Shown piece by piece: positions 1,443 through 18,867 of a DNA stretch of 19,349 bases (positions are counted from its first letter, which is position 1; each line of letters starts with the position of its first letter). The stretch is from an uncultured bacterium (GTDB lineage Bacteria > CAIJMQ01). The stretch lies in the NCBI GenBank assembly GCA_964573245.1, contig CAZNJA010000008.1, forward strand, positions 19,484 through 38,832, read 5' to 3'. Below the pieces are notes generated by a model. It made no database searches. It saw only the letters and a program-made list of their open reading frames with translations, and had not been told where the DNA came from. Both the position numbers and the translations under genes were made by a program.

Positions 1443-2642
1443 TTATTTAATCACTTCACTGACAACGCCAGCGCCCACAGTATGGCCGCCTTCTCTTATA
1501 GCAAACCTTAATCCTTTTTCCATCGCTATCGGCGCTATCAGTTTCACATCCATCATTATGTTGTCCCCAGGCATTACCATTTCTACGTCTTTGGGCAGTG
1601 TCGCTGTGCCGGTCACGTCTGTGGTCCTGAAATAGAATTGCGGCCTGTATCCAGAGAAAAACGGTGTGTGTCTGCCCCCTTCTTCTTTTGTCAGTATGTA
1701 TACTTGGCCTTTGAATTCGCTATGCGGGGTTATGCTGCCGGGCGCTGCCAGCACTTGGCCTCTTGATACGTCGTCTTTTTCTACTCCTCTAAGCAGAACT
1801 CCCACATTGTCCCCAGCTTCGCCGTAGTCAAGGATTTTCCTGAACATTTCTATGCCTGTTGCTACTGTTTTCTTTATGTCTAAGCTTAAGCCGACTATGT
1901 CTATGTCATCACCTGTTTTTATTTTGCCTCGTTCTATTCTGCCGGTTACTACCGTTCCCCTTCCGGTTATCGTAAAGATGTCTTCTATCGCCATCAGAAA
2001 TGGTTTGTCGGTTTCCCGTTTGGGGCTGGGAATGTAGGAGTCTACGGCATCAAGTAGTTCGTAGACGCTTTTGCACTCGGCGCTTGCTACATCAGCAGAT
2101 TGGATGCATTTTAGGGCACTGCCCTTTATTATCGGTATTTCGTCACCGGGAAATTCGTATTTCTTTAATAGGTCCCGTACTTCTAACTCTACCAGCTCTA
2201 ATAGCTCGGGATCTGTTACTTGGTCGGTTTTGTTTAGGTATACTACCATTGCAGGCACTCCTACTTGCCTTGCAAGAAGGATGTGTTCTCGTGTCTGCGG
2301 CATCGGCCCGTCTGCTGCTGATACTACCAGTATCGCACCGTCCATTTGCGCCGCGCCGGTTATCATGTTTTTTATGTAGTCGGCATGACCGGGACAATCT
2401 ATATGCGCATAATGTCGTTTATCTGTCTCGTATTCTATGTGCGCGATGTTGATTGTTAATCCACGCTCTTTTTCTTCCGGCGCTTTGTCGATTTCGTCTA
2501 CTGTGAATTCTTTGTCTGTCAGTCCCTTCTTCGACAAAACTTTTGTTATTGCTGAGGTCAATGTTGTCTTGCCATGGTCTACATGCCCTATCGTACCTAT
2601 GTTTATATGCGGCTTCTTTCTCTCAAATTTCTCCTTTGCCAT
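1443..2642 (-). CDS. tuf: Elongation factor Tu (copy downstream of fusA)
   Basis: [60 protein letters not shown] upstream. Confidence 0.99.
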
Positions 2643-5637: not shown

Positions 5638-6006
5638 TTATCCTTTCTTGGTTCCATATTTAGAACGGGATTTTTTTCTATTTTCTGTGCCCCCCGCATC
5701 CAATTTTCCTCGAACTATATGATATCTTACCCCAGGCAAATCTTTAACTCTTCCGCCTCTAACAAGCACAATAGAATGCTCTTGCAGATTATGCCCTTCT
5801 CCGGGTATGTAGGCGGATATCTCTTTACCCGTAATTAAACGAACTTTAGCAACTTTTCTTAGTGCTGAATTCGGTTTCTTAGGAGTCATAGTGAAAACTC
5901 TCGTGCAAACTCCCCTTCTTAACGGAGAAAGTCCCAATGCTGGAGCTTTGCTTTTTCTTTTAAGGCTTTTTCTACCTTTTTTTACTAATTGATTAAGTGT
6001 CGGCAT
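5638..6006 (-). CDS. rpsL: 30S ribosomal protein S12
   Basis: [48 protein letters not shown] inside the 3' end of rpoBC. Confidence 0.99.
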
Positions 6007-9000
6007 TTTTTACCACCTCAATTTCCCTGTATTTTTTTAATCCTGTTCCTGCAGGGATTAGTTTACCAATCATTAAGTTTTCTTTCAAGCCTTTTAGTTC
6101 ATCTTTCCTACCGAAAATGGCAGACCTCGTCAAAACTCTCGGAGTCTCCTGAAACGAAGCCGCAGATATAAATGATGGAGAAGCCAAGGAAGCTTTAGTG
6201 ATTCCCAAAACAAGAGGGCGTCCTTTTGCCGGTTTACCACCGGAAGAAACAACTTTTTCATTTTCTTTCTGAAAGTCCGACTTTTCCATTTGTTCTGCCC
6301 ATAAGAAAGACGTATCTCCGGGGTCTTCTATCTGAACTTTCATAAGCATTTGTCTAATAATAATCTCTATATGCTTGTCGTTGATTCTTACTCCTTGCAA
6401 ACGATAAACTTCTTGTATTTCATTGAGAAGATATTGTTGCAGTTTTCTCTCCCCTTCAATTCGGAGTATTTCCTGAATAACGGCAGGACCATCAGTTAAC
6501 TTTTGCCCGGATGCAACCCAATCCCCTACATCCACTTCAATATGTTTACCATGCGGGACTACATATCTTCTTGTTTCATTCGGACCTTCAATGACAATAT
6601 CCCGAATATTACCCTCCATAATAATTTCTTTAACATGTCCGTCTATTTCTGTCACAATAGCGGGATTTTTGGGCTTTCTGGCTTCAAACAACTCTGCTAT
6701 TCTAGGAAGCCCTCCCGTAATATCCGTTGCCTTCACAACTTCACGAGGAGTTTTCGCAAGGAGTGCCCCAATTCCTACATGTGCATTCTCGTTAATTGTT
6801 ATATGTGCATTTGTAGGCAAAGGATAATACCTCGCATTGCCAAAGTCGTCCCCGCCTGCCGAATCTTGACGGGCAGGTCTTACTATTATTTGTGGATGTA
6901 ATGCTCCCCTATGCTCTACAACAACTTTTTCTCTAATATTGGTCTCCCGATTCAATTCTTCTCTCATCGTTAGACCTTTAATAATATCTTTGAATTCAAC
7001 CTTCCCTTTAATTTCAGAAAGCAACGGACGAGTGTATGGATCCCAACGAGATATAGTCTCTTTTGCCTTCACTCTTTGTCCATCGTTTACTTCAAGGACA
7101 CTTCCTACATTTATAGAATAAGTTTCTATTTTATTTGCTTCCTCATCTTCCAATAAGATATTGCCATTTCTGTTCAAAACTATCAATTTCCCATCGCTGT
7201 TTTTCGTTACATTTAAATTCTTAAATCTCACAATACCATCTGATTGAGCAGTATAATGCGATTCTCCAACTATTCTTGAAGCAGTGCCCCCTATATGGAA
7301 AGTTCTAAGTGTAAGTTGAGTCCCAGGTTCGCCGATTGACTGAGCCGCCATAATTCCGACCGCTTGACCTAAAGCAACCCTTTTGCCTGTAGCCAAATCT
7401 TTGCCATAACATTTCGCGCAAATGCCATTCTTACTTTGACATGTTAAAACCGATCGAATGGAAACTTCTTCTATGCCTGCCTCTTCAATTGCATCCGCAA
7501 TTTCTTCGGTTATTTCATCGCCAGCTCTCACGATAACCTCATCCAATAAAAGCAATTTTATGTCATCTGTTGCAGTCCTTCCGATAATTCTTTCTTTAAG
7601 AGAAATGAAATTTCTGCCACCTAATTCTAATGGTCTTACAGTTATTCCATTGACAGTACCACAATCTTCCTCCGTCACTATTACGTTTTGAGCAACGTCT
7701 ACCAATCTTCTGGTCAAATAACCTGCTTGAGCAGTCTTCAAAGCGGTGTCGGCTAATCCCTTTCTCCCTCCATGCGTCGAAATGAAATACTCCAGAACAG
7801 ACAAACCTTCTCTAAAGTTAGTAGTGATCGGGAATTCAATAATTTCCCCCACAGCTCCAGTTAATTGTTTGCGCGGACGAGCTATCAATCCTCTCATGCC
7901 ACCCAATTGCCTTATCTGTTGAGCACTGCCCCTGGCTTCAGATTCCATTATAAGAAGAACAGGGTTAAATGGATGTTTCTTCAATTCTGAAAACATATTC
8001 TGTGCAACTTCATCGCCAACACGACTCCAAACATCAAGCAGTTTGTTGTATCTTTCCCCATAGGTAATAATTCCTTCGTGATACTGTCTTTCAACTCTTT
8101 CCACTTCTTTACGTGCCTTTTCAATCTTTACCCATTTATCACCTGGAATCTTCACATCAGTTATACTTATGGAAATGCCTCCCATGGTTGCATAGTGAAA
8201 ACCAAGTCCCTTTAAATTGTCAAGCAACGCGCAAGTAGCATCTTTCCCAAATCGTTTGATATAGGAATCGACAAAAGAAGATAATTTACTTTTTGTCATT
8301 CCTTCATTTGCAAACTCGGAACCGTCGGGCAAAACTTCATTAAAAATAGCTCTGCCCACGGTAGTTTTCAGTTTGTTGTTTTTAACAGTCGGCATAAAAC
8401 GTTCGGGGACTGTTAATAAAATTGGCGTATGCAGTTTTATTTCTCCCAATTCATACGCCATCTTAGCTTCTTCTGTGCTCGAGAAAAATCTCATGTCTTT
8501 TTCTTTAACCGATTGCCCGGCTGTATCCATTTTCGTAAGATAATACAATCCCAACACCATATCTTGAGACGGAAGCAATATCGGAGAGCCGTCAGAAGGG
8601 CGAAACAGATTATTTGTAGACAGCATAAGCATTTGCGCTTCAAGAAGCGTTTCCATAAATAGAGGTACGTGGACACTCATCGTGTCCCCGTCAAAATCGG
8701 CGCCGAAAGCAGCACACACCATAGGATGAACTTTTATCGCCTTACTCTCTGTAAGTTTTGGTCTAAAAGCTTGAATCCCCAATCTATGCAAAGTGGGCGC
8801 CCGATTTAAAAGTACAAAGTGGTTCCTAACTACTTCCGACAACGCTTCCCATACTTCTACTGTGCGTCTTTCTATTAGTTTTTTACCTGCTTTTATAGTA
8901 TGGAAATAGCCCTTTTCCTTTAGATATCTGATTATAAAGGGTTGGAATAATTCCAGAGCCATCTCTTTGGGAATACCGCATTCGTCTAATTTCAACTTTG

Positions 9001-12000
9001 GGTCTACAACAATTACAGACCTACCTGAATAATCAACTCTTTTACCGAGAAGGTTTTGTCTGAAACGCCCTTGTTTGCCGCCAAGAGTATCAGCCAAAGA
9101 TTTTAGAGGTCTTCCTTGAGTTCCGCCCACAACAACTCTTCCTCTTCTGCCATTATCAAAAAGCGCATCAACAGCTTCCTGTAACATTCTTTTTTCATTT
9201 CTCAAAATTATTTCAGGCGCGTCAAGTTCTATCAACCTCTTAAGCCTATTGTTTCTATTGATAACTCTGCGGTATAAATCATTTAAATCCGAACTCGCAA
9301 AACCGCCTTTGTCAAGAGGAACTAATGGGCGCAAGTTTGGCGGAATAACAGGAATTCTATCCAAAATCATCCAATCGGGAGAATTACCCGAAGTTATAAA
9401 CGCCTCTACTATTTTTCGCCTTTTGTTTATTTTTCTTCTTGTCGATTGAGACGAAGTGCCTTGCTCTTTTTTCTGCAATTCATCTCGTAATTTTTCTAAG
9501 TTTAGTTCCTGCAATAAACGTTTTAAAGCAGGGGCTCCCATTCCTACTTCAAAACTATCACCATATTTTTGTATATATTCTTCGAGTTCCGAGTCGGTTA
9601 GGATTTGTTGCCTTTCCAAAGGAGTTTTACCCGGCTTAAAAACAACCCAAGAATCATAATAAATAAGTTTTTCCAGATTAGGAAGTGTCATATCCAAAAG
9701 TGTTCCTATCACAGAAGGTATAACTCTAAACATCCATATGTGCGCCACAGGAGTGATAAGTTCTATATGTCCCATTCTCTCGCGTCTTACTTTCGACTCT
9801 GTTACCTCAACACCGCATCTGTCACAAACAACGCCTTTATGTTTTATTTTTTTGTATTTACCACAATAACATTCCCAATCTTTGGTTGGACCAAATATTC
9901 TTTCGCAGAAAAGTCCACCTTTCTCAGCTCTGAAAGTGCGGTAATTTACGGTTTCGGGTTTTTTCACTTCACCTTTGGACCAAGATCTTATCAATTGCGG
10001 CGAAGCTAATCCCAACGCTATACTTTTTATTTCGGAAGCTTCGTTTTTTCTTTCTTTATTTAACCACTGCCAACTACTGCTATCCCATGTAGATTCCTTG
10101 TCCTTCTCTATTTTGAAATCAAGACAAAGCCCCTGCAGTTCTTTTACTAAGACATTAAAAGATTCGGGAATACCTGAATTTAAAGTGTTCTCGCCTTTAA
10201 CAATTGCCTCATAAGCCCTAGTTCTTCCTTCTATATCATCGCTTTTTACAGTCAAGGTCTCTTGTAAAGTATGAGCAGCCCCATAGGATTCCAAAGCCCA
10301 AACTTCCATTTCTCCAAATCTTTGCCCTCCCATTCGAGCTTTACCTCCCAAGGGCTGTTGGGTAATTAAAGAATATGGACCTATAGATCGGGCATGAATT
10401 TTATCTTCGACTAAATGATCAAGTTTAAGCAAATATATATAACCTACGGTTACCCTTTGGTCGAACCGCTCCCCAGTTCTGCCATCAAACAAAACCGTTT
10501 TTCCGTCTTCTGGTAAATTGGCTTCTTTTAAACAATTTTTGATTTCTTCCTCTGTTGCTCCATTAAATACTGGTGTTACGGCCTCAAACCCCAAAACCTT
10601 TGCCGCCCAGCCAAGATGTGTTTCGAGAAGTTGTCCTAAATTCATCCTCGAAGGAACACCCAACGGATTTAAAACAACATCTACCGGCGTTCCATCGGAA
10701 AGATACGGCATATCTTCTTCAGGAAGAACTTTGGCGATAACGCCTTTATTCCCATGACGGCCAGAAAGCTTGTCCCCTTCTTGAAGTTGTCTTTTGCTGG
10801 CTACATATACCTTTACTAATTTAATGACTCCCGGGGACAGTTCTTCCACCTGAAGATAATTTTTGATCTCCTGCGCAGCCTCTTTTTCTATAATCTTCTT
10901 TCTCTCCGCGAACTCCTCCCGATAATTACGCACTCTTTCGTTTATTTTAGCGTTCTTTACCTTTATACTGCCAAAGGCTTTTAAATCAAGCCGGCTTAAT
11001 AAAGCGGCAGACAATACTTCCGATGCTCTTATTTGTATGGAATCAGTACCTTTAGTTGAATTTTTTTGATGAGCAAGTTTAATCTTAACAGCCTGCTTAC
11101 ATTTTGTACCTTTAAGAATCTCTACGATTTTATTTAATGTTGCCCTCTGCAAACTTTCCAACAAGGTATCCTTTTTTCTCTTGATGGACTGGATTTCAGA
11201 AGAACTGTCTTTTAACCGTTTTTTATCTTCTTCTTCTCTGGAAAATATCTTCGTATCTATTACAACCCCCTCAGTTCCAGGCGGGACTTTTAAGGAAGTA
11301 TTAAGGACATCTCCGGCTTTTTCTCCAAATATTGCTCTAAGCAATTTTTCCTCCGAAGTAAGAACAGACTCGCCCTTCGGGGTAATTTTGCCCACAAGGA
11401 TATCTCCAGCGTTTACATAAGCACCTACTCTTACTACACCGTCGCTATCTAAATCTTTCAAAGCATCTTCGGAAACGTTAGGTATATCTTGAGTAATTTC
11501 TTCTTTGCCTAACTTCGTTTCTCTGCACTCAACTTCAAATTCCTCTATGTGAATTGAAGTATATGCGTCTTCTTTAATTATTTTTTCCGAAACCAAAATA
11601 GCATCTTCAAAGTTATATCCTTCCCAAGGCATGAAAGCTACTAAAGCATTTCTGCCCAAAGCCAACTTTCCGTTCTTTGTAGCAGACCCATCGGCTAAAA
11701 TATCTCCTTTCTTTACCCTTTGTCCTACATTCACAATGGGTTTTTGATGAATACACGTGGATTGGTTTGACCTTACAAAATTCCTCAGAGGGTAATAATC
11801 AAGCTCATCCAAAAGGAAGTCTTCTGTTTTGGAAGATGAACTTGCTCTCACTATTATACTTTCGCCCGAAACACTATCTACAACACCATCTTTTTTTGCC
11901 AAAACAGTAGCACCTGAATCTTTTGCAACTATATGCTCCATTCCAGTTTGGACCAAAGGAGGTTCGGGATTAACAAGAGGAACAGCCTGTCTTTGCATAT

Positions 12001-13927
12001 TAGAACCCATTAAAGCCCTATTGGAATCATCATGCTCCAAAAATGGTATTAAAGAAGCAGATGTAGAAACCGTTTGAATTGGGTCTATGTCCATATATTT
12101 AACTTCAGCACTAGGCATAGAGTGGTAATCACCCTTGTATCTTGCCAGAATTCTATCGTCGGTTAAATATCCTTTAGCATCTAGTGAAGCATTAGCTTGA
12201 GCTATAATAAACTTATCCTCTTCGTCTGCTGTAAGATAATCTACTGTGTTAGTAACTTTTTTACTCTCTACTTTTCTATAGGGCGCTTCCAATAATCCTA
12301 GACTGTTTATTTGCGCGTAATTGGCCAATGAGGTTATCAATCCAATATTTTGTCCTTCGGGAGTTTCTATCGGACAAATACGTCCGTAATGAGTTGGATG
12401 AACGTCTCTTACTTCTATCCCTGCCCGTTCCCTGGTCAAACCTTCAGGACCCAATGCGGACAATCTTCTTTTGTGCGTCAATTCAGCCAACGGATTTGTT
12501 TGGTCCATAAATTGGGAAAGTTGCGATGAGGTAAAAAATTCCATCAAAGAACTATTTATAAGACGAGGATTCACCAAAGTATGAGGCATTAAATCCTCTG
12601 CCTTTCCCATAAGCAATCTTTCGTGAATTGAACGAGCAAGTTTGATGAAAGAGGGACGAAGTTGACTTCCCATAAGTTCACCGATACTTCTAATTCTGCG
12701 ATTTCCGAGGCGGTCAATATCATCCACACCAGATTTACCCATTTGCAAATTAATTAGTTCTTTTACCACTGCAACTATATCGTCAATAGTCAAAACCCTC
12801 TTGGATGTGGGGATATCCAAATTCAATCTAGAATTTAATCTGTGTCTGCCAATTCTCCCTAAATCAAATCTCGCTTTGTCAAATAAAATTCCGCGCAAAT
12901 AAGTTTCAGCGGTATCCGACTCAAAAGGCGTCCCTGATCTTATACGCGAATAAATCTGAGTTAAAGCCTCTTCTTTGGTTTGAGTGCGGTCTTTCCTGAG
13001 GGTATTTATTATCAAAGCGCTGGAATCTTTATCTTTTATGATTTTTACTTTATTTATGCTGAAAGAGGAAAGAGTTTTAAGTAGAAGGAGAGAAATTTCC
13101 TGCTTACTTTCGGCTATTTTCTGGCCTATTTTCGCATCGACCACATCTTCAGCCAATATTTGTCCTATTAGTTTTTTATCGAAACTTCTTTGAGATAAAT
13201 TTATTTCTTCCGTTTCGCAAAAAAGCTTGATTATACCATCATCTTTTGGATAGCCTAAAGCCCTGAAAATCACTGTGCCCAACATTCTCCTGCGCGGACC
13301 TATTACACCATACAAGAGATCGTTGTTATCAGTTTCAAATTCCATCCAAGTGCCCCTGTCAGGAACTATTCTGGCTACAAAAATCTCTTTGCCTTTTTTC
13401 TGACCGCCCGATTCGAAAAATGCTCCAGGAGAACGATGTAGTTGACAAGTGATAACTCTTTCTATGCCATTTATAATAAAAGTCCCTTGTTGAGTCATGA
13501 GAGGAAAATCGCAGAGATAAACCTCTTCTTCTCTGATACTTTCTATCTCTAATCCTTTCTTGATTTCGGTATTTCTTGCAGACTTGCGATTGAAAGATAT
13601 AGGAACAGGGTTTTTATAAATGATAAGTTTCAATTTTAATTTTAAAGGAACCGAATAGGTAATTCCTCTTCTTATACATTCTGTGACACTATAACGGGAA
13701 TTTCCAATAGTATAATTTGCAAATTCAAGAGAAAACTTTCCGTTACTGGCAACAATTGGAAATAATTCACCAATAAGAGACTGCAACCCTTCATTTTTCC
13801 TTTTTAAAGGGGGTACATCCGGTTGAAGGAAAGAACTAAAAGATTGATTCTGTATCTGGACCAAATTGGGCAATCCCATCACCGGGGGAATCTTTTTAAA
13901 ATTTCTTACATTGGTAGATGTAAGCAT
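5993..13927 (-). CDS. rpoBC: Fused DNA-directed RNA polymerase subunits beta and beta' (single ORF, ~2644 aa)
   Basis: Beta motifs ([53 protein letters not shown]) run in frame into beta' motifs ([13 protein letters not shown], Zn-finger [22 protein letters not shown], x[16 protein letters not shown]). SD GGGAGG at 13939-13944 supports a start at ATG 13927 or TTG 13933 rather than 13981. Junction at ~10030-10110. Confidence 0.93.
6851..6877. repeat. 27-nt GC-rich palindrome inside the beta' coding region (encodes PARQDSAGG)
   Basis: cccg-cctgcc-gaatcttgacg-ggcagg; 19/27 GC; exactly 9 codons in frame; arms resemble the intergenic cctgcc..gcagg copies at 13955 and 14050. Confidence 0.55.
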
Positions 13928-13954
13928 ACGCAACTTTTCCTCCCTTTTTACATA

Positions 13955-13972
13955 CCTGCCTAAGCAGGCAAA
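13955..13972. repeat. CCTGCCTAAGCAGGCAAA palindromic repeat, copy 1
   Basis: Exact 18-nt direct repeat of 14050-14067; just upstream of the rpoB SD. Confidence 0.8.
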
Positions 13973-14046
13973 TTTAATCAAAAAACCGATATCACATTAA
14001 ATCCTCTCTTACTAAACAATAAAGAAAGGGGAAATTTTAGAAACAC

Positions 14047-17667: not shown

Positions 17668-18867
17668 TCATTTAATCACTTCACTGACAACGCCAGCGCC
17701 CACAGTATGGCCGCCTTCTCTTATAGCAAACCTTAATCCTTTTTCCATCGCTATCGGCGCTATCAGTTTCACATCCATCATTATGTTGTCCCCAGGCATT
17801 ACCATTTCTACGTCTTTGGGCAGTGTCGCTGTGCCGGTCACGTCTGTGGTCCTGAAATAGAATTGCGGCCTGTATCCAGAGAAAAACGGTGTGTGTCTGC
17901 CCCCTTCTTCTTTTGTCAGTATGTATACTTGGCCTTTGAATTCGCTATGCGGGGTTATGCTGCCGGGCGCTGCCAGCACTTGGCCTCTTGATACGTCGTC
18001 TTTTTCTACTCCTCTAAGCAGAACTCCCACATTGTCCCCAGCTTCGCCGTAGTCAAGGATTTTCCTGAACATTTCTATGCCTGTTGCTACTGTTTTCTTT
18101 ATGTCTAAGCTTAAGCCGACTATGTCTATGTCATCACCTGTTTTTATTTTGCCTCGTTCTATTCTGCCGGTTACTACCGTTCCCCTTCCGGTTATCGTAA
18201 AGATGTCTTCTATCGCCATCAGAAATGGTTTGTCGGTTTCCCGTTTGGGGCTGGGAATGTAGGAGTCTACGGCATCAAGTAGTTCGTAGACGCTTTTGCA
18301 CTCGGCGCTTGCTACATCAGCAGATTGGATGCATTTTAGGGCACTGCCCTTTATTATCGGTATTTCGTCACCGGGAAATTCGTATTTCTTTAATAGGTCC
18401 CGTACTTCTAACTCTACCAGCTCTAATAGCTCGGGATCTGTTACTTGGTCGGTTTTGTTTAGGTATACTACCATTGCAGGCACTCCTACTTGCCTTGCAA
18501 GAAGGATGTGTTCTCGTGTCTGCGGCATCGGCCCGTCTGCTGCTGATACTACCAGTATCGCACCGTCCATTTGCGCCGCGCCGGTTATCATGTTTTTTAT
18601 GTAGTCGGCATGACCGGGACAATCTATATGCGCATAATGTCGTTTATCTGTCTCGTATTCTATGTGCGCGATGTTGATTGTTAATCCACGCTCTTTTTCT
18701 TCAGGCGCTTTGTCGATTTCGTCTACCGTGAATTCTTTGTCTGTCAATCCCTTCTTCGACAAAACTTTTGTTATTGCCGATGTCAATGTTGTCTTGCCGT
18801 GGTCTACGTGCCCTATCGTACCTATGTTTATATGCGGTTTCTTTCTCTCAAATTTCTCTTTTGCCAT
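17668..18867 (-). CDS. tuf: Elongation factor Tu (copy downstream of tRNA-Thr)
   Basis: Protein identical to 1443-2642; TGA stop. Confidence 0.99.

What the first reader, a model, noticed from the sequence alone, without database searches (positions are those of the whole stretch)
8678..8707. Catalytic motif of beta' is GADFDGD instead of NADFDGD
Seen: codons TTC GGC GCC GAT TTT GAC GGG GAC ACG ATG give [13 protein letters not shown] (8704-8702) differs from AAC at two positions, so a single miscall cannot explain it. The usual Q after the motif is also replaced by T. The three Mg-binding Asp and the Arg of LLNRAPTLH are intact. Established: this Asn (E. coli beta' N458) is near-invariant in cellular RNA polymerases and helps select the NTP ribose over dNTPs. 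Inference: this housekeeping polymerase may have altered sugar selectivity or compensating changes.
Basis: partly seen in the sequence, partly recalled or inferred. Interest (0 to 1): 0.7.

Follow-up and report, generated by a model that had tools for sequence, protein, structure and literature searches.

The report
RNA polymerase active-site Asn replaced by Gly
The only RNA polymerase of this uncultured bacterium carries glycine where almost all cellular RNA polymerases have a substrate-contacting asparagine; the change is real, inherited and kept by selection, and the same change turns up rarely in several unrelated microbial lineages.

Summary
Window 8707-8678 (minus strand) reads [10 protein letters not shown] inside one 2662-codon fused rpoB-rpoC frame, which is the only rpoC found in the genome.

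The Gly (E. coli beta' N458 position) is not an error:
- All 5 species genomes of the family have it, as GGC or GGT.
- Contigs from 3 sequencing runs cross the codon with no difference.
- dN/dS is 0.04-0.065 at dS of 1 or more.

A tree shows stepwise loss of the side chain: Asn in the sister families, Ala in two metagenome lineages, then Gly. The Thr after DGD is a phylum-wide trait.

Asn is indeed near-invariant. G was found in 4 of 403 sampled genomes outside the phylum. G (rarely A, once H) nevertheless recurs in some Chloroflexota, Patescibacteria, Armatimonadota, Bacillota and DPANN or methanogen archaea.

All other NTP-site residues are intact, including R425, the main 2'-OH discriminator. 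Published N458S and N458A data predict mild effects on ribose contact, translocation and RNA cleavage, not a new substrate class. I found no compensating change shared by the G lineages.

The parts
5993..13981 (-). Fused rpoB-rpoC open frame (2662 codons from the first TTG). The true start is probably the ATG at 13927 (M19). The beta' part begins near 9950.
   Evidence: PF00623 is over its cut-off. Beta and beta' Pfam domains are on record for the window's own protein P0002. Residues 1361-2662 align with E. coli beta' 60-1366 in solved structures. The start is inferred from alignment of the N-terminus with E. coli RpoB.
8678..8707 (-). Catalytic loop [10 protein letters not shown] (the NADFDGD motif with G for N, and T for the Q that follows)
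   Evidence: Mapped to E. coli numbering.
8702..8704 (-). GGC, Gly at the position of E. coli beta' N458
   Evidence: The four other genomes of the family have GGC or GGT. Three genomes of sister family f3 (G006-G008) have AAT or AAC.
8681..8683 (-). ACG, Thr at the position of E. coli beta' Q465 (a phylum-wide trait)
   Evidence: It is T in all 14 rows of the T-clade (8 A/G rows and 6 Asn rows) and Q in the 6 fused outgroup rows.
8786..8812 (-). LLNRAPTLH. The Arg (8803-8801) is E. coli beta' R425, the main 2'-OH discriminator, and is intact.
   Evidence: Its role is taken from PMC7862312.
8657..8659 (-). TTT, Phe at the position of E. coli beta' T473 (Ser in most bacteria). This change arose on the same branch as the loss of Asn.
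8720..8722 (-). ATG, Met at the position of E. coli beta' L452 (specific to the Gly family and one Ala lineage)
7295..7333 (-). Trigger-loop segment [14 protein letters not shown]929, R933 and H936 are intact. M932 is Leu, phylum-wide and also in some Asn-type bacteria.

Best explanation
This is the organism's single, working, fused beta-beta' RNA polymerase. The Asn of the NADFDGD catalytic loop lost its side chain in two steps during the history of the lineage: Asn, then Ala, then Gly. The small residue has since been kept under strong purifying selection.

Shown here:
- the codon is real and is inherited across the family;
- the order N, then A, then G on the tree;
- the gene is single-copy;
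- omega is about 0.05;
- every other catalytic and NTP-binding residue checked is intact;
- the same G or A state occurs in unrelated bacterial and archaeal lineages.

Inferred from published E. coli work on N458S and N458A: the enzyme loses one hydrogen bond to the 3'/2' hydroxyls of the incoming NTP and of the RNA 3' end. Sugar discrimination, which is carried mainly by R425 and trigger-loop Q929, should therefore be only a few-fold weaker at the binding step. The pre-translocated state should be less stable, and intrinsic RNA cleavage and termination behaviour should shift. It stays an ordinary NTP-using transcriptase. Whether the change was adaptive or merely tolerated is open.
For: Sequence and frame.

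Single copy: one rpoC locus in G000. Five G-type genomes of other phyla each have exactly one motif match.

Fixation and inheritance:
- 5 of 5 family genomes have G, and 4 of 4 genomes of the sister families have N.
- Gly codons vary synonymously, GGC x3 and GGT x2.
- Contigs of 3 runs agree.

Selection: NG86 dN/dS is 0.039-0.065 over the whole gene and 0.042-0.064 within +-150 codons of the motif, at dS 1.0-2.1.

Order of events: fused NQ proteins, then the NT clade (100*), then P0012 N, P0010 N, P0009 A (99*), P0008 A (99*), then the G clade.

Intact site: beta' R425, D460/462/464, Q929, R933, H936, and beta E565, R678, M681, E813, D814, K1065, K1073, R1106, H1237.

Recurrence elsewhere: in a truncated scan of species genomes, 43 of 119 matches lie in RNAP context, of which 39 are G, 3 A and 1 H. 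At least 5 changes are needed on a tree of 64 beta' rows.

Literature (passages read):
- N458S lowers selectivity 4-fold at binding and raises it 1.5-fold at incorporation; R425K lowers it 17- and 25-fold (PMC7862312).
- N458 binds the 3' and 2' OH of the RNA 3' end, and N458S destabilises the pre-translocated state (PMC6821320).
- N458S speeds intrinsic cleavage (bioRxiv 10.1101/2024.06.20.599782).
- Chromosomal N458A is viable in E. coli with hyper-attenuation (bioRxiv 10.1101/2020.06.16.155770).
Against: - No enzyme of this lineage, and no N458G mutant, has been assayed in anything I read. The published data are for Ser and Ala, and Gly also adds backbone freedom in a loop that holds the catalytic Mg.
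- Several substitutions at otherwise invariant columns share the branch with the loss of Asn (beta P372S, H447R; beta' D54G, S473F, D806N, I1352M). They could be compensations, which would imply the loss is not mild on its own.
- Asn is kept in about 99% of sampled genomes, so the side chain clearly matters in most backgrounds.
- The genome is a 93%-complete, 110-contig assembly. A second, divergent polymerase on an unassembled piece cannot be fully excluded.
- No RNA run was available to show expression.
Confidence: 0.75

Rival explanations
1. The small residue is adaptive. It retunes elongation, pausing, termination or proofreading. Alternatively it removes a contact used by natural nucleoside-analogue inhibitors of the NTP site, and that is why it arose repeatedly.
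For: - Independent origins in several phyla and in archaea.
- Replacements are almost only G or A, and A/G pairs occur in close relatives in four lineages: P0008/P0009 versus the Gly family; L085 versus L103; L038/L050 versus L081; L102 versus L121.
- Gly is retained over dS of 1 or more.
- N458S and N458A do change translocation bias, cleavage rate and attenuation in E. coli.
- That nucleoside-analogue inhibitors contact this Asn is recalled, not checked.
Against: - Frequency is low (4 of 403 sampled genomes) and the carriers share no obvious ecology.
- No shared co-substitution was found.
- The idea that faster intrinsic cleavage replaces a lost Gre factor fails. GreA was found in 4 of 9 genomes of the phylum, all in the Gly genus, and in none of the Asn-type families.
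- Retention of Gly is equally expected if reversion needs two base changes through unfit intermediates.
Confidence: 0.15
2. The polymerase has markedly relaxed or changed sugar selectivity (uses dNTPs or 3'-modified nucleotides).
For: N458 contacts the ribose hydroxyls and is one of three conserved residues able to contact the 2'-OH (PMC7862312). Gly removes the side chain completely. The neighbouring Q465T, A467S and M932L differ from E. coli.
Against: - N458S changes selectivity 4-fold or less in E. coli and less than 5-fold in earlier E. coli and yeast work cited there.
- R425 and Q929, which carry most of the discrimination, are intact.
- Q465T, A467S and M932L are also present in the Asn-type sister families.
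- The gene is under the same strong constraint as in the relatives.
Confidence: 0.06
3. Artefact: a sequencing or assembly error, a chimeric bin, or a decaying or second gene copy.
For: It is a metagenome-type assembly of 110 contigs, and read depth in the laid runs is low at 3-5.
Against: - Five species genomes and six protein clusters share G.
- Three runs' contigs agree.
- The frame is open for 2662 codons, with omega about 0.05.
- There is a single PF00623 locus.
- The locus sits in the conserved order nusG-rplKAJL-rpoBC-rpsLG-fusA-tuf.
Confidence: 0.01

Closest known systems
E. coli RNA polymerase beta' N458S and N458A laboratory mutants (and yeast Rpb1 N479S, recalled)
   Same: The same residue of the same loop is replaced by a small side chain. 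The enzymes are active, and N458A is viable on the chromosome. Effects are modest and fall on ribose contact, translocation register, cleavage and attenuation.
   Different: Here the change is natural, is to Gly, is fixed in a whole family and sits in a fused beta-beta' protein that also has T465, S467, F473 and L932. N458G itself does not appear in the passages I read.
Natural G-type (GADFDGDQM / GADFDGDEM) large subunits found here in Chloroflexota, Patescibacteria, Armatimonadota, a Thermoanaerobacterales MAG, and DPANN and methanogen archaea
   Same: The same position and the same Gly (rarely Ala). Each of the five such genomes checked has a single motif match. R425 is intact, and the trigger-loop motif was found where the frame reached it.
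   Different: They have independent origins, are unfused, keep Q or E after DGD and keep S473 and mostly L452. None is described in the literature I could search.
Canonical bacterial RpoC with NADFDGDQM (E. coli, Thermus and others)
   Same: Full-length collinear match to solved beta' chains. Pfam RNA_pol_Rpb1 domains 1-5 are present, and all Mg- and NTP-binding residues checked are present except N458.
   Different: G for N458 and T for Q465, plus fusion to RpoB.
Fused RpoB-RpoC of Helicobacter and Wolbachia (recalled, not checked here)
   Same: beta and beta' are translated as one polypeptide.
   Different: The lineage is unrelated. Here the fusion spans a whole candidate phylum and neighbouring lineages whose proteins are labelled Omnitrophica, Caldiserica or 'bacterium'. 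Whether the linkers are homologous was not tested.

Membership tests
Bacterial DNA-directed RNA polymerase beta' subunit (RpoC) | Pfam RNA_pol_Rpb1 domains (PF04997, PF00623, PF04983, PF05000, PF04998) | tested here: met
   PF00623 scores 85.5 and 45.9 bits, over its cut-off. All five families are on record for the window's own protein P0002.
Bacterial DNA-directed RNA polymerase beta' subunit (RpoC) | Collinear full-length similarity to solved beta' chains | tested here: met
   Residues 1-1291 of the beta' part align with E. coli beta' 60-1366, E = 0, 1350 bits.
Bacterial DNA-directed RNA polymerase beta' subunit (RpoC) | Three Mg-binding Asp of the DFDGD loop | tested here: met
   D at the E. 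coli 460, 462 and 464 positions.
Bacterial DNA-directed RNA polymerase beta' subunit (RpoC) | Asn preceding ADFDGD (E. coli N458) | tested here: not met
   Gly, GGC at 8704-8702. This is the finding itself. Because every other feature is met, it is a variant member and not a non-member.
Bacterial DNA-directed RNA polymerase beta' subunit (RpoC) | R425 of NRAPTLH and trigger-loop Q929, R933, H936 | tested here: met
   All present. M932 is Leu, as in the Asn-type relatives.
Bacterial DNA-directed RNA polymerase beta subunit (RpoB), fused form | Beta domains and active-site residues in the same reading frame as beta' | tested here: met
   One open frame of 2662 codons. PF04563, PF04561, PF04565, PF10385, PF00562 and PF04560 are on record for P0002. 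Beta E813, D814, K1065, K1073, R678, R1106 and H1237 are present.
Housekeeping (sole) polymerase of the cell | No second rpoC in the genome | tested here: met
   One locus in G000, which is 93.16% complete in 110 contigs. Incompleteness leaves a small doubt.
Housekeeping (sole) polymerase of the cell | Expressed and catalytically active | not testable with these tools
dN/dS of about 0.05 is the only indirect support.

The most novel reading that the evidence does not exclude
A 'small-residue' (Gly/Ala) state at beta' 458 may be a distinct, convergently evolved functional class of cellular RNA polymerase. It is found in at least six bacterial and archaeal lineages. The missing ribose contact would change translocation, pausing, proofreading or sensitivity to nucleoside-analogue inhibitors. 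Only Gly or Ala would be allowed because a water molecule must take the amide's place. The Ratteibacteria-like family, with its preserved series Asn, Ala, Gly and its co-substitutions (S473F, D806N, beta H447R), would then record how the switch is made.
Probability: 0.15. Interest if true: 0.7.

Novelty: new variant of a known kind. Interest (0 to 1): 0.45.

Why it matters
Papers on the nucleotide-addition mechanism call this Asn 'universally conserved' (PMC7862312). This work shows that it is not. A housekeeping polymerase can live without the side chain, evolution reached that state repeatedly, and it used almost only Gly or Ala.

This gives enzymologists natural, long-tested N458G and N458A backgrounds for asking what the ribose contact is for: sugar choice, translocation register or proofreading. 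It also gives them a dated series of intermediates in one lineage. For annotation and motif-based screens, it warns that GADFDGD and AADFDGD are genuine catalytic loops and not errors. The expected physiological effect is modest, so it is a useful curiosity and not a new kind of enzyme.

Tried and rejected
1. Compensation by the trigger loop. M932L is present, but it is phylum-wide and also occurs in Asn-type outgroups. Rejected.

2. A co-substitution shared by all G lineages. None was found at columns 90% or more conserved among 28 Asn-type beta' sequences. The 25 other G-type sequences keep S473 (25 of 25) and mostly L452 (20 of 25). That alignment covers mainly the first ~1050 residues of beta'.

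3. 'Gre factor lost, faster intrinsic cleavage compensates'. PF01272 was found in 4 of 9 genomes of the phylum, all in the Gly genus (two copies in G000 and G003). It was not found in G004 or in the four Asn-type genomes, which are 64-93% complete. This is the opposite of the prediction.

4. Complete census. Its pattern could not see codons starting with A (Ser-AGY, Thr, Lys, Ile, Met, Arg-AGR). The three sample searches partly fill that gap. One search listed only 150 of 380 matches.

5. Search for intermediates between Asn and Ala in metagenomes. It was truncated at 120 stretches, and none resembled this family. The tally was 110 N, 6 G, 1 T and 1 S, many in divergent RNAP-like frames.

6. 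Expression. No RNA holder was listed.

7. Earlier notes of this scan. Nothing was found.

8. Literature.
- No paper holds GADFDGD.
- No paper holds AADFDGD, SADFDGD, TADFDGD, HADFDGD, DADFDGD or xADFDGD.
- No paper holds Q465 together with 'RNA polymerase' and rpoC.
Supplementary tables of PMC7862312 may hold further N458 data that I could not see.

9. Structure modelling of the site was not attempted. The fold tools return no coordinates or ligands, so the distance between residues 458 and 473 could not be measured.

Full report
**Observation.**
The reverse complement of window 8707-8678 reads TTC GGC GCC GAT TTT GAC GGG GAC ACG ATG, which is [10 protein letters not shown]. It lies in frame in a single open frame, 5993-13981 on the minus strand, 2662 codons. 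This frame encodes RpoB and RpoC as one polypeptide. All beta and beta' Pfam domains are on record for the window's own protein. Residues 1361-2662 align collinearly with E. coli beta' 60-1366 among solved structures.

In an alignment with E. coli rpoC taken from a RefSeq record, the Gly is at N458 and the Thr at Q465. The three Asp are at 460, 462 and 464, and the Arg of LLNRAPTLH is at R425.

**Is it an error?**
No, on three lines of evidence.
- The genome (1.46 Mb, 110 contigs, 93% complete) has one PF00623 locus.
- Its phylum holds nine species genomes in the collection. All five of the window's family have G, with codons GGC, GGC, GGC, GGT, GGT. The four genomes of the two sister families have N, and all nine have T after DGD.
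- Contigs assembled independently from three sequencing runs of salt-marsh metagenomes cross the codon without a difference. Depth is only 3-5, one run may be the source sample, and a fourth run did not reach the codon.

Pairwise dN/dS within the family is 0.039-0.065 over the whole gene. It is 0.042-0.064 within 150 codons either side of the motif, at dS 1.0-2.1. The Gly has therefore been kept through at least one synonymous change per site in a strongly constrained gene.

**How it arose.**
A search of 5.8 billion protein clusters with residues 1560-1860 listed the best 120 of 7997 scored hits. Counting the query as well, 121 proteins were tallied:
- 107 have N...Q.
- 6 have N...T.
- 6 have G...T, all at 90% identity or more to the window.
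- 2 have A...T (P0008 at 87% identity, P0009 at 85%).

Sources name the nearest relatives 'Candidatus Ratteibacteria', 'Candidatus Omnitrophica' and 'Caldiserica' bacteria, so the lineage is Ratteibacteria-like.

I built a maximum-likelihood tree of 30 beta' parts (LG+G4, quick search, SH-aLRT support, rooted on three unfused proteins). It gives a ladder:
- fused N...Q proteins;
- a T465 clade (100);
- within it, the two Asn sister families on one side;
- on the other side P0012 (N), P0010 (N), P0009 (A, 99), P0008 (A, 99), and then the Gly family.

So Asn was replaced first by Ala and then by Gly. The step from AAY to GCY still needs an unseen intermediate. Ser/Thr473-to-Phe arose on the same branch as the loss of Asn.

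**How unusual is it?**
Asn is indeed near-invariant. I used a degenerate DNA pattern that prints the codon.
- All 141 listed matches from genomes outside the phylum were AAY. Only 150 of 380 matches were listed.
- In an evenly drawn sample of Chloroflexota, 133 of 141 genomes matched and 5 of those had GGC. One of the 5 is the centre genome, which was chosen because it has G, so the count is 4 of 132 otherwise. It is 4 of 131 without the one genome flagged as unpublished.
- In Patescibacteria, 131 of 141 genomes matched, and only the centre had Gly.
- Pooled, that is 4 of 403, about 1%.

Yet the state recurs. Of these, 43 lie in RNA polymerase context: 39 G, 3 A and 1 H. They break down as follows:
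- 24 canonical bacterial G-type beta' sequences. These come from Chloroflexota (Limnocylindria, Chloroflexia, Anaerolineae, Dehalococcoidia), Patescibacteria (Saccharibacteria, Daviesbacteria, Woykebacteria), Armatimonadota and a Thermoanaerobacterales MAG.
- 10 archaeal G-type sequences, from Nano-, Woese- and Micrarchaeota and from methanogen MAGs.
- The remaining 9 are 5 G-type frames in divergent RNAP-like context, the 3 Ala sequences and the 1 His sequence.
- The other 76 matches are chance hits, mostly ADFDGDGM calcium-binding-type repeats.

Five G-type genomes from other phyla each have exactly one motif match. A tree of 64 beta' rows needs at least five changes between Asn and a small residue. 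That is a lower bound, because Asn-type Patescibacteria were not included. In four lineages, close relatives carry A in one and G in the other. No paper in the searchable library holds GADFDGD or five other single-residue variants of the motif.

**What it probably does.**
All other residues that bind the metals or the NTP are intact. These are beta' R425, Q929, R933 and H936, and beta E565, R678, M681, E813, D814, K1065, K1073, R1106 and H1237. M932 is Leu, but so it is in the Asn-type sister families and in several outgroups.

The passages I read say the following.
- R425, N458 and Q929 can contact the 2'-OH. R425 is the major discriminator (R425K lowers selectivity 17-fold at binding and 25-fold at incorporation). 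N458S costs only 4-fold at binding (PMC7862312).
- N458S speeds intrinsic RNA cleavage (bioRxiv 10.1101/2024.06.20.599782).
- A chromosomal N458A E. coli strain is viable and hyper-attenuating (bioRxiv 10.1101/2020.06.16.155770).

By inference, the Gly enzyme is an ordinary transcriptase. It lacks one ribose hydrogen bond and should show slightly weaker NTP binding selectivity, a forward-shifted translocation register and altered cleavage and termination. Nothing here tests this directly. N458G itself does not appear in those passages, and Gly could also loosen the metal-binding loop.

**Compensation.**
No substitution is shared by the independent G lineages at columns conserved in Asn-type enzymes.

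Within this lineage, several changes at columns invariant in 12 Asn-type fused relatives sit on the same branch as the loss of Asn. They are beta P372S, H447R, I818V and I1304T/A, and beta' D54G, I416V, S473F, D806N (just after the bridge helix) and I1352M. L452M follows slightly later. They may be compensatory or merely co-inherited. I could not measure distances in a structure.

The idea that faster intrinsic cleavage replaces a lost Gre factor is contradicted. GreA was found only in the Gly genus.

**Verdict.**
The residue is near-invariant and the enzyme is the housekeeping one. However, the expected effect on sugar choice is small, and the motif variant is a rare, recurrent natural state and not a unique oddity. 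It is a new natural variant of a known enzyme, of moderate interest.

Noticed in passing
window 5993-13981 (-): rpoB and rpoC are fused into one frame. The fusion is shared by all nine genomes of the phylum where the contig allows it to be seen (frames of about 2600-2690 aa). It also occurs in more distant N...Q proteins of 2577-2621 aa labelled Omnitrophica or 'bacterium'. It is therefore older than the T465 and A/G changes.
   Followed up: partly
window 1443-2642 (-) and 17668-18867 (-): There are two tuf genes, one at each end of the nusG-rplKAJL-rpoBC-rpsLG-fusA block. They are 1190 of 1200 bases identical and encode identical proteins, which suggests gene conversion.
   Followed up: partly
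window 5993-6006: The rpsL frame (5638-6006) starts 14 bases before the rpoBC stop codon ends, so the two frames overlap.
   Followed up: no
G000:C5:5619-5843 and G000:C14:3983-4210: The window's genome has two GreA-type genes, and G003 also has two. No PF01272 match was found in G004 or in the four Asn-type genomes of the phylum, which are 64-93% complete.
   Followed up: partly
residue after DGD (E. coli beta' Q465): This position is less conserved than the Asn. It is T in the whole phylum and in two unrelated genomes of the broad sample (G099, G213). In Patescibacteria it is M in two genomes and A in one (G624, G573, G597).
   Followed up: no
L078 (Clostridia MAG): A canonical beta' with His at the Asn position (YHADFDGDQMPVHIPLS), sister to a G-type Thermoanaerobacterales MAG on the tree.
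   Followed up: no
L051, L061, L087, L124, L128, L146; L174, L184, L191, L195, L242, L248, L284: These are divergent RNA-polymerase-like frames in MAGs and metagenome contigs. They carry G, and in two cases T or S, before ADFDGD, with unusual flanks. They may be phage or other non-canonical polymerases and were not examined.
   Followed up: no
G422, G443, G516 (Chloroflexota) and G283: Each genome has two matches to the rpoC catalytic motif. All are Asn in the three Chloroflexota genomes; G283's codons were not among the rows listed. This could be duplicated rpoC or contamination.
   Followed up: no
L103, L151: These contigs are titled 'uncultured Gammaproteobacteria' but carry beta' sequences that group with Patescibacteria (Woykebacteria-like and L085-like) on the tree. 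The labels are probably wrong.
   Followed up: no
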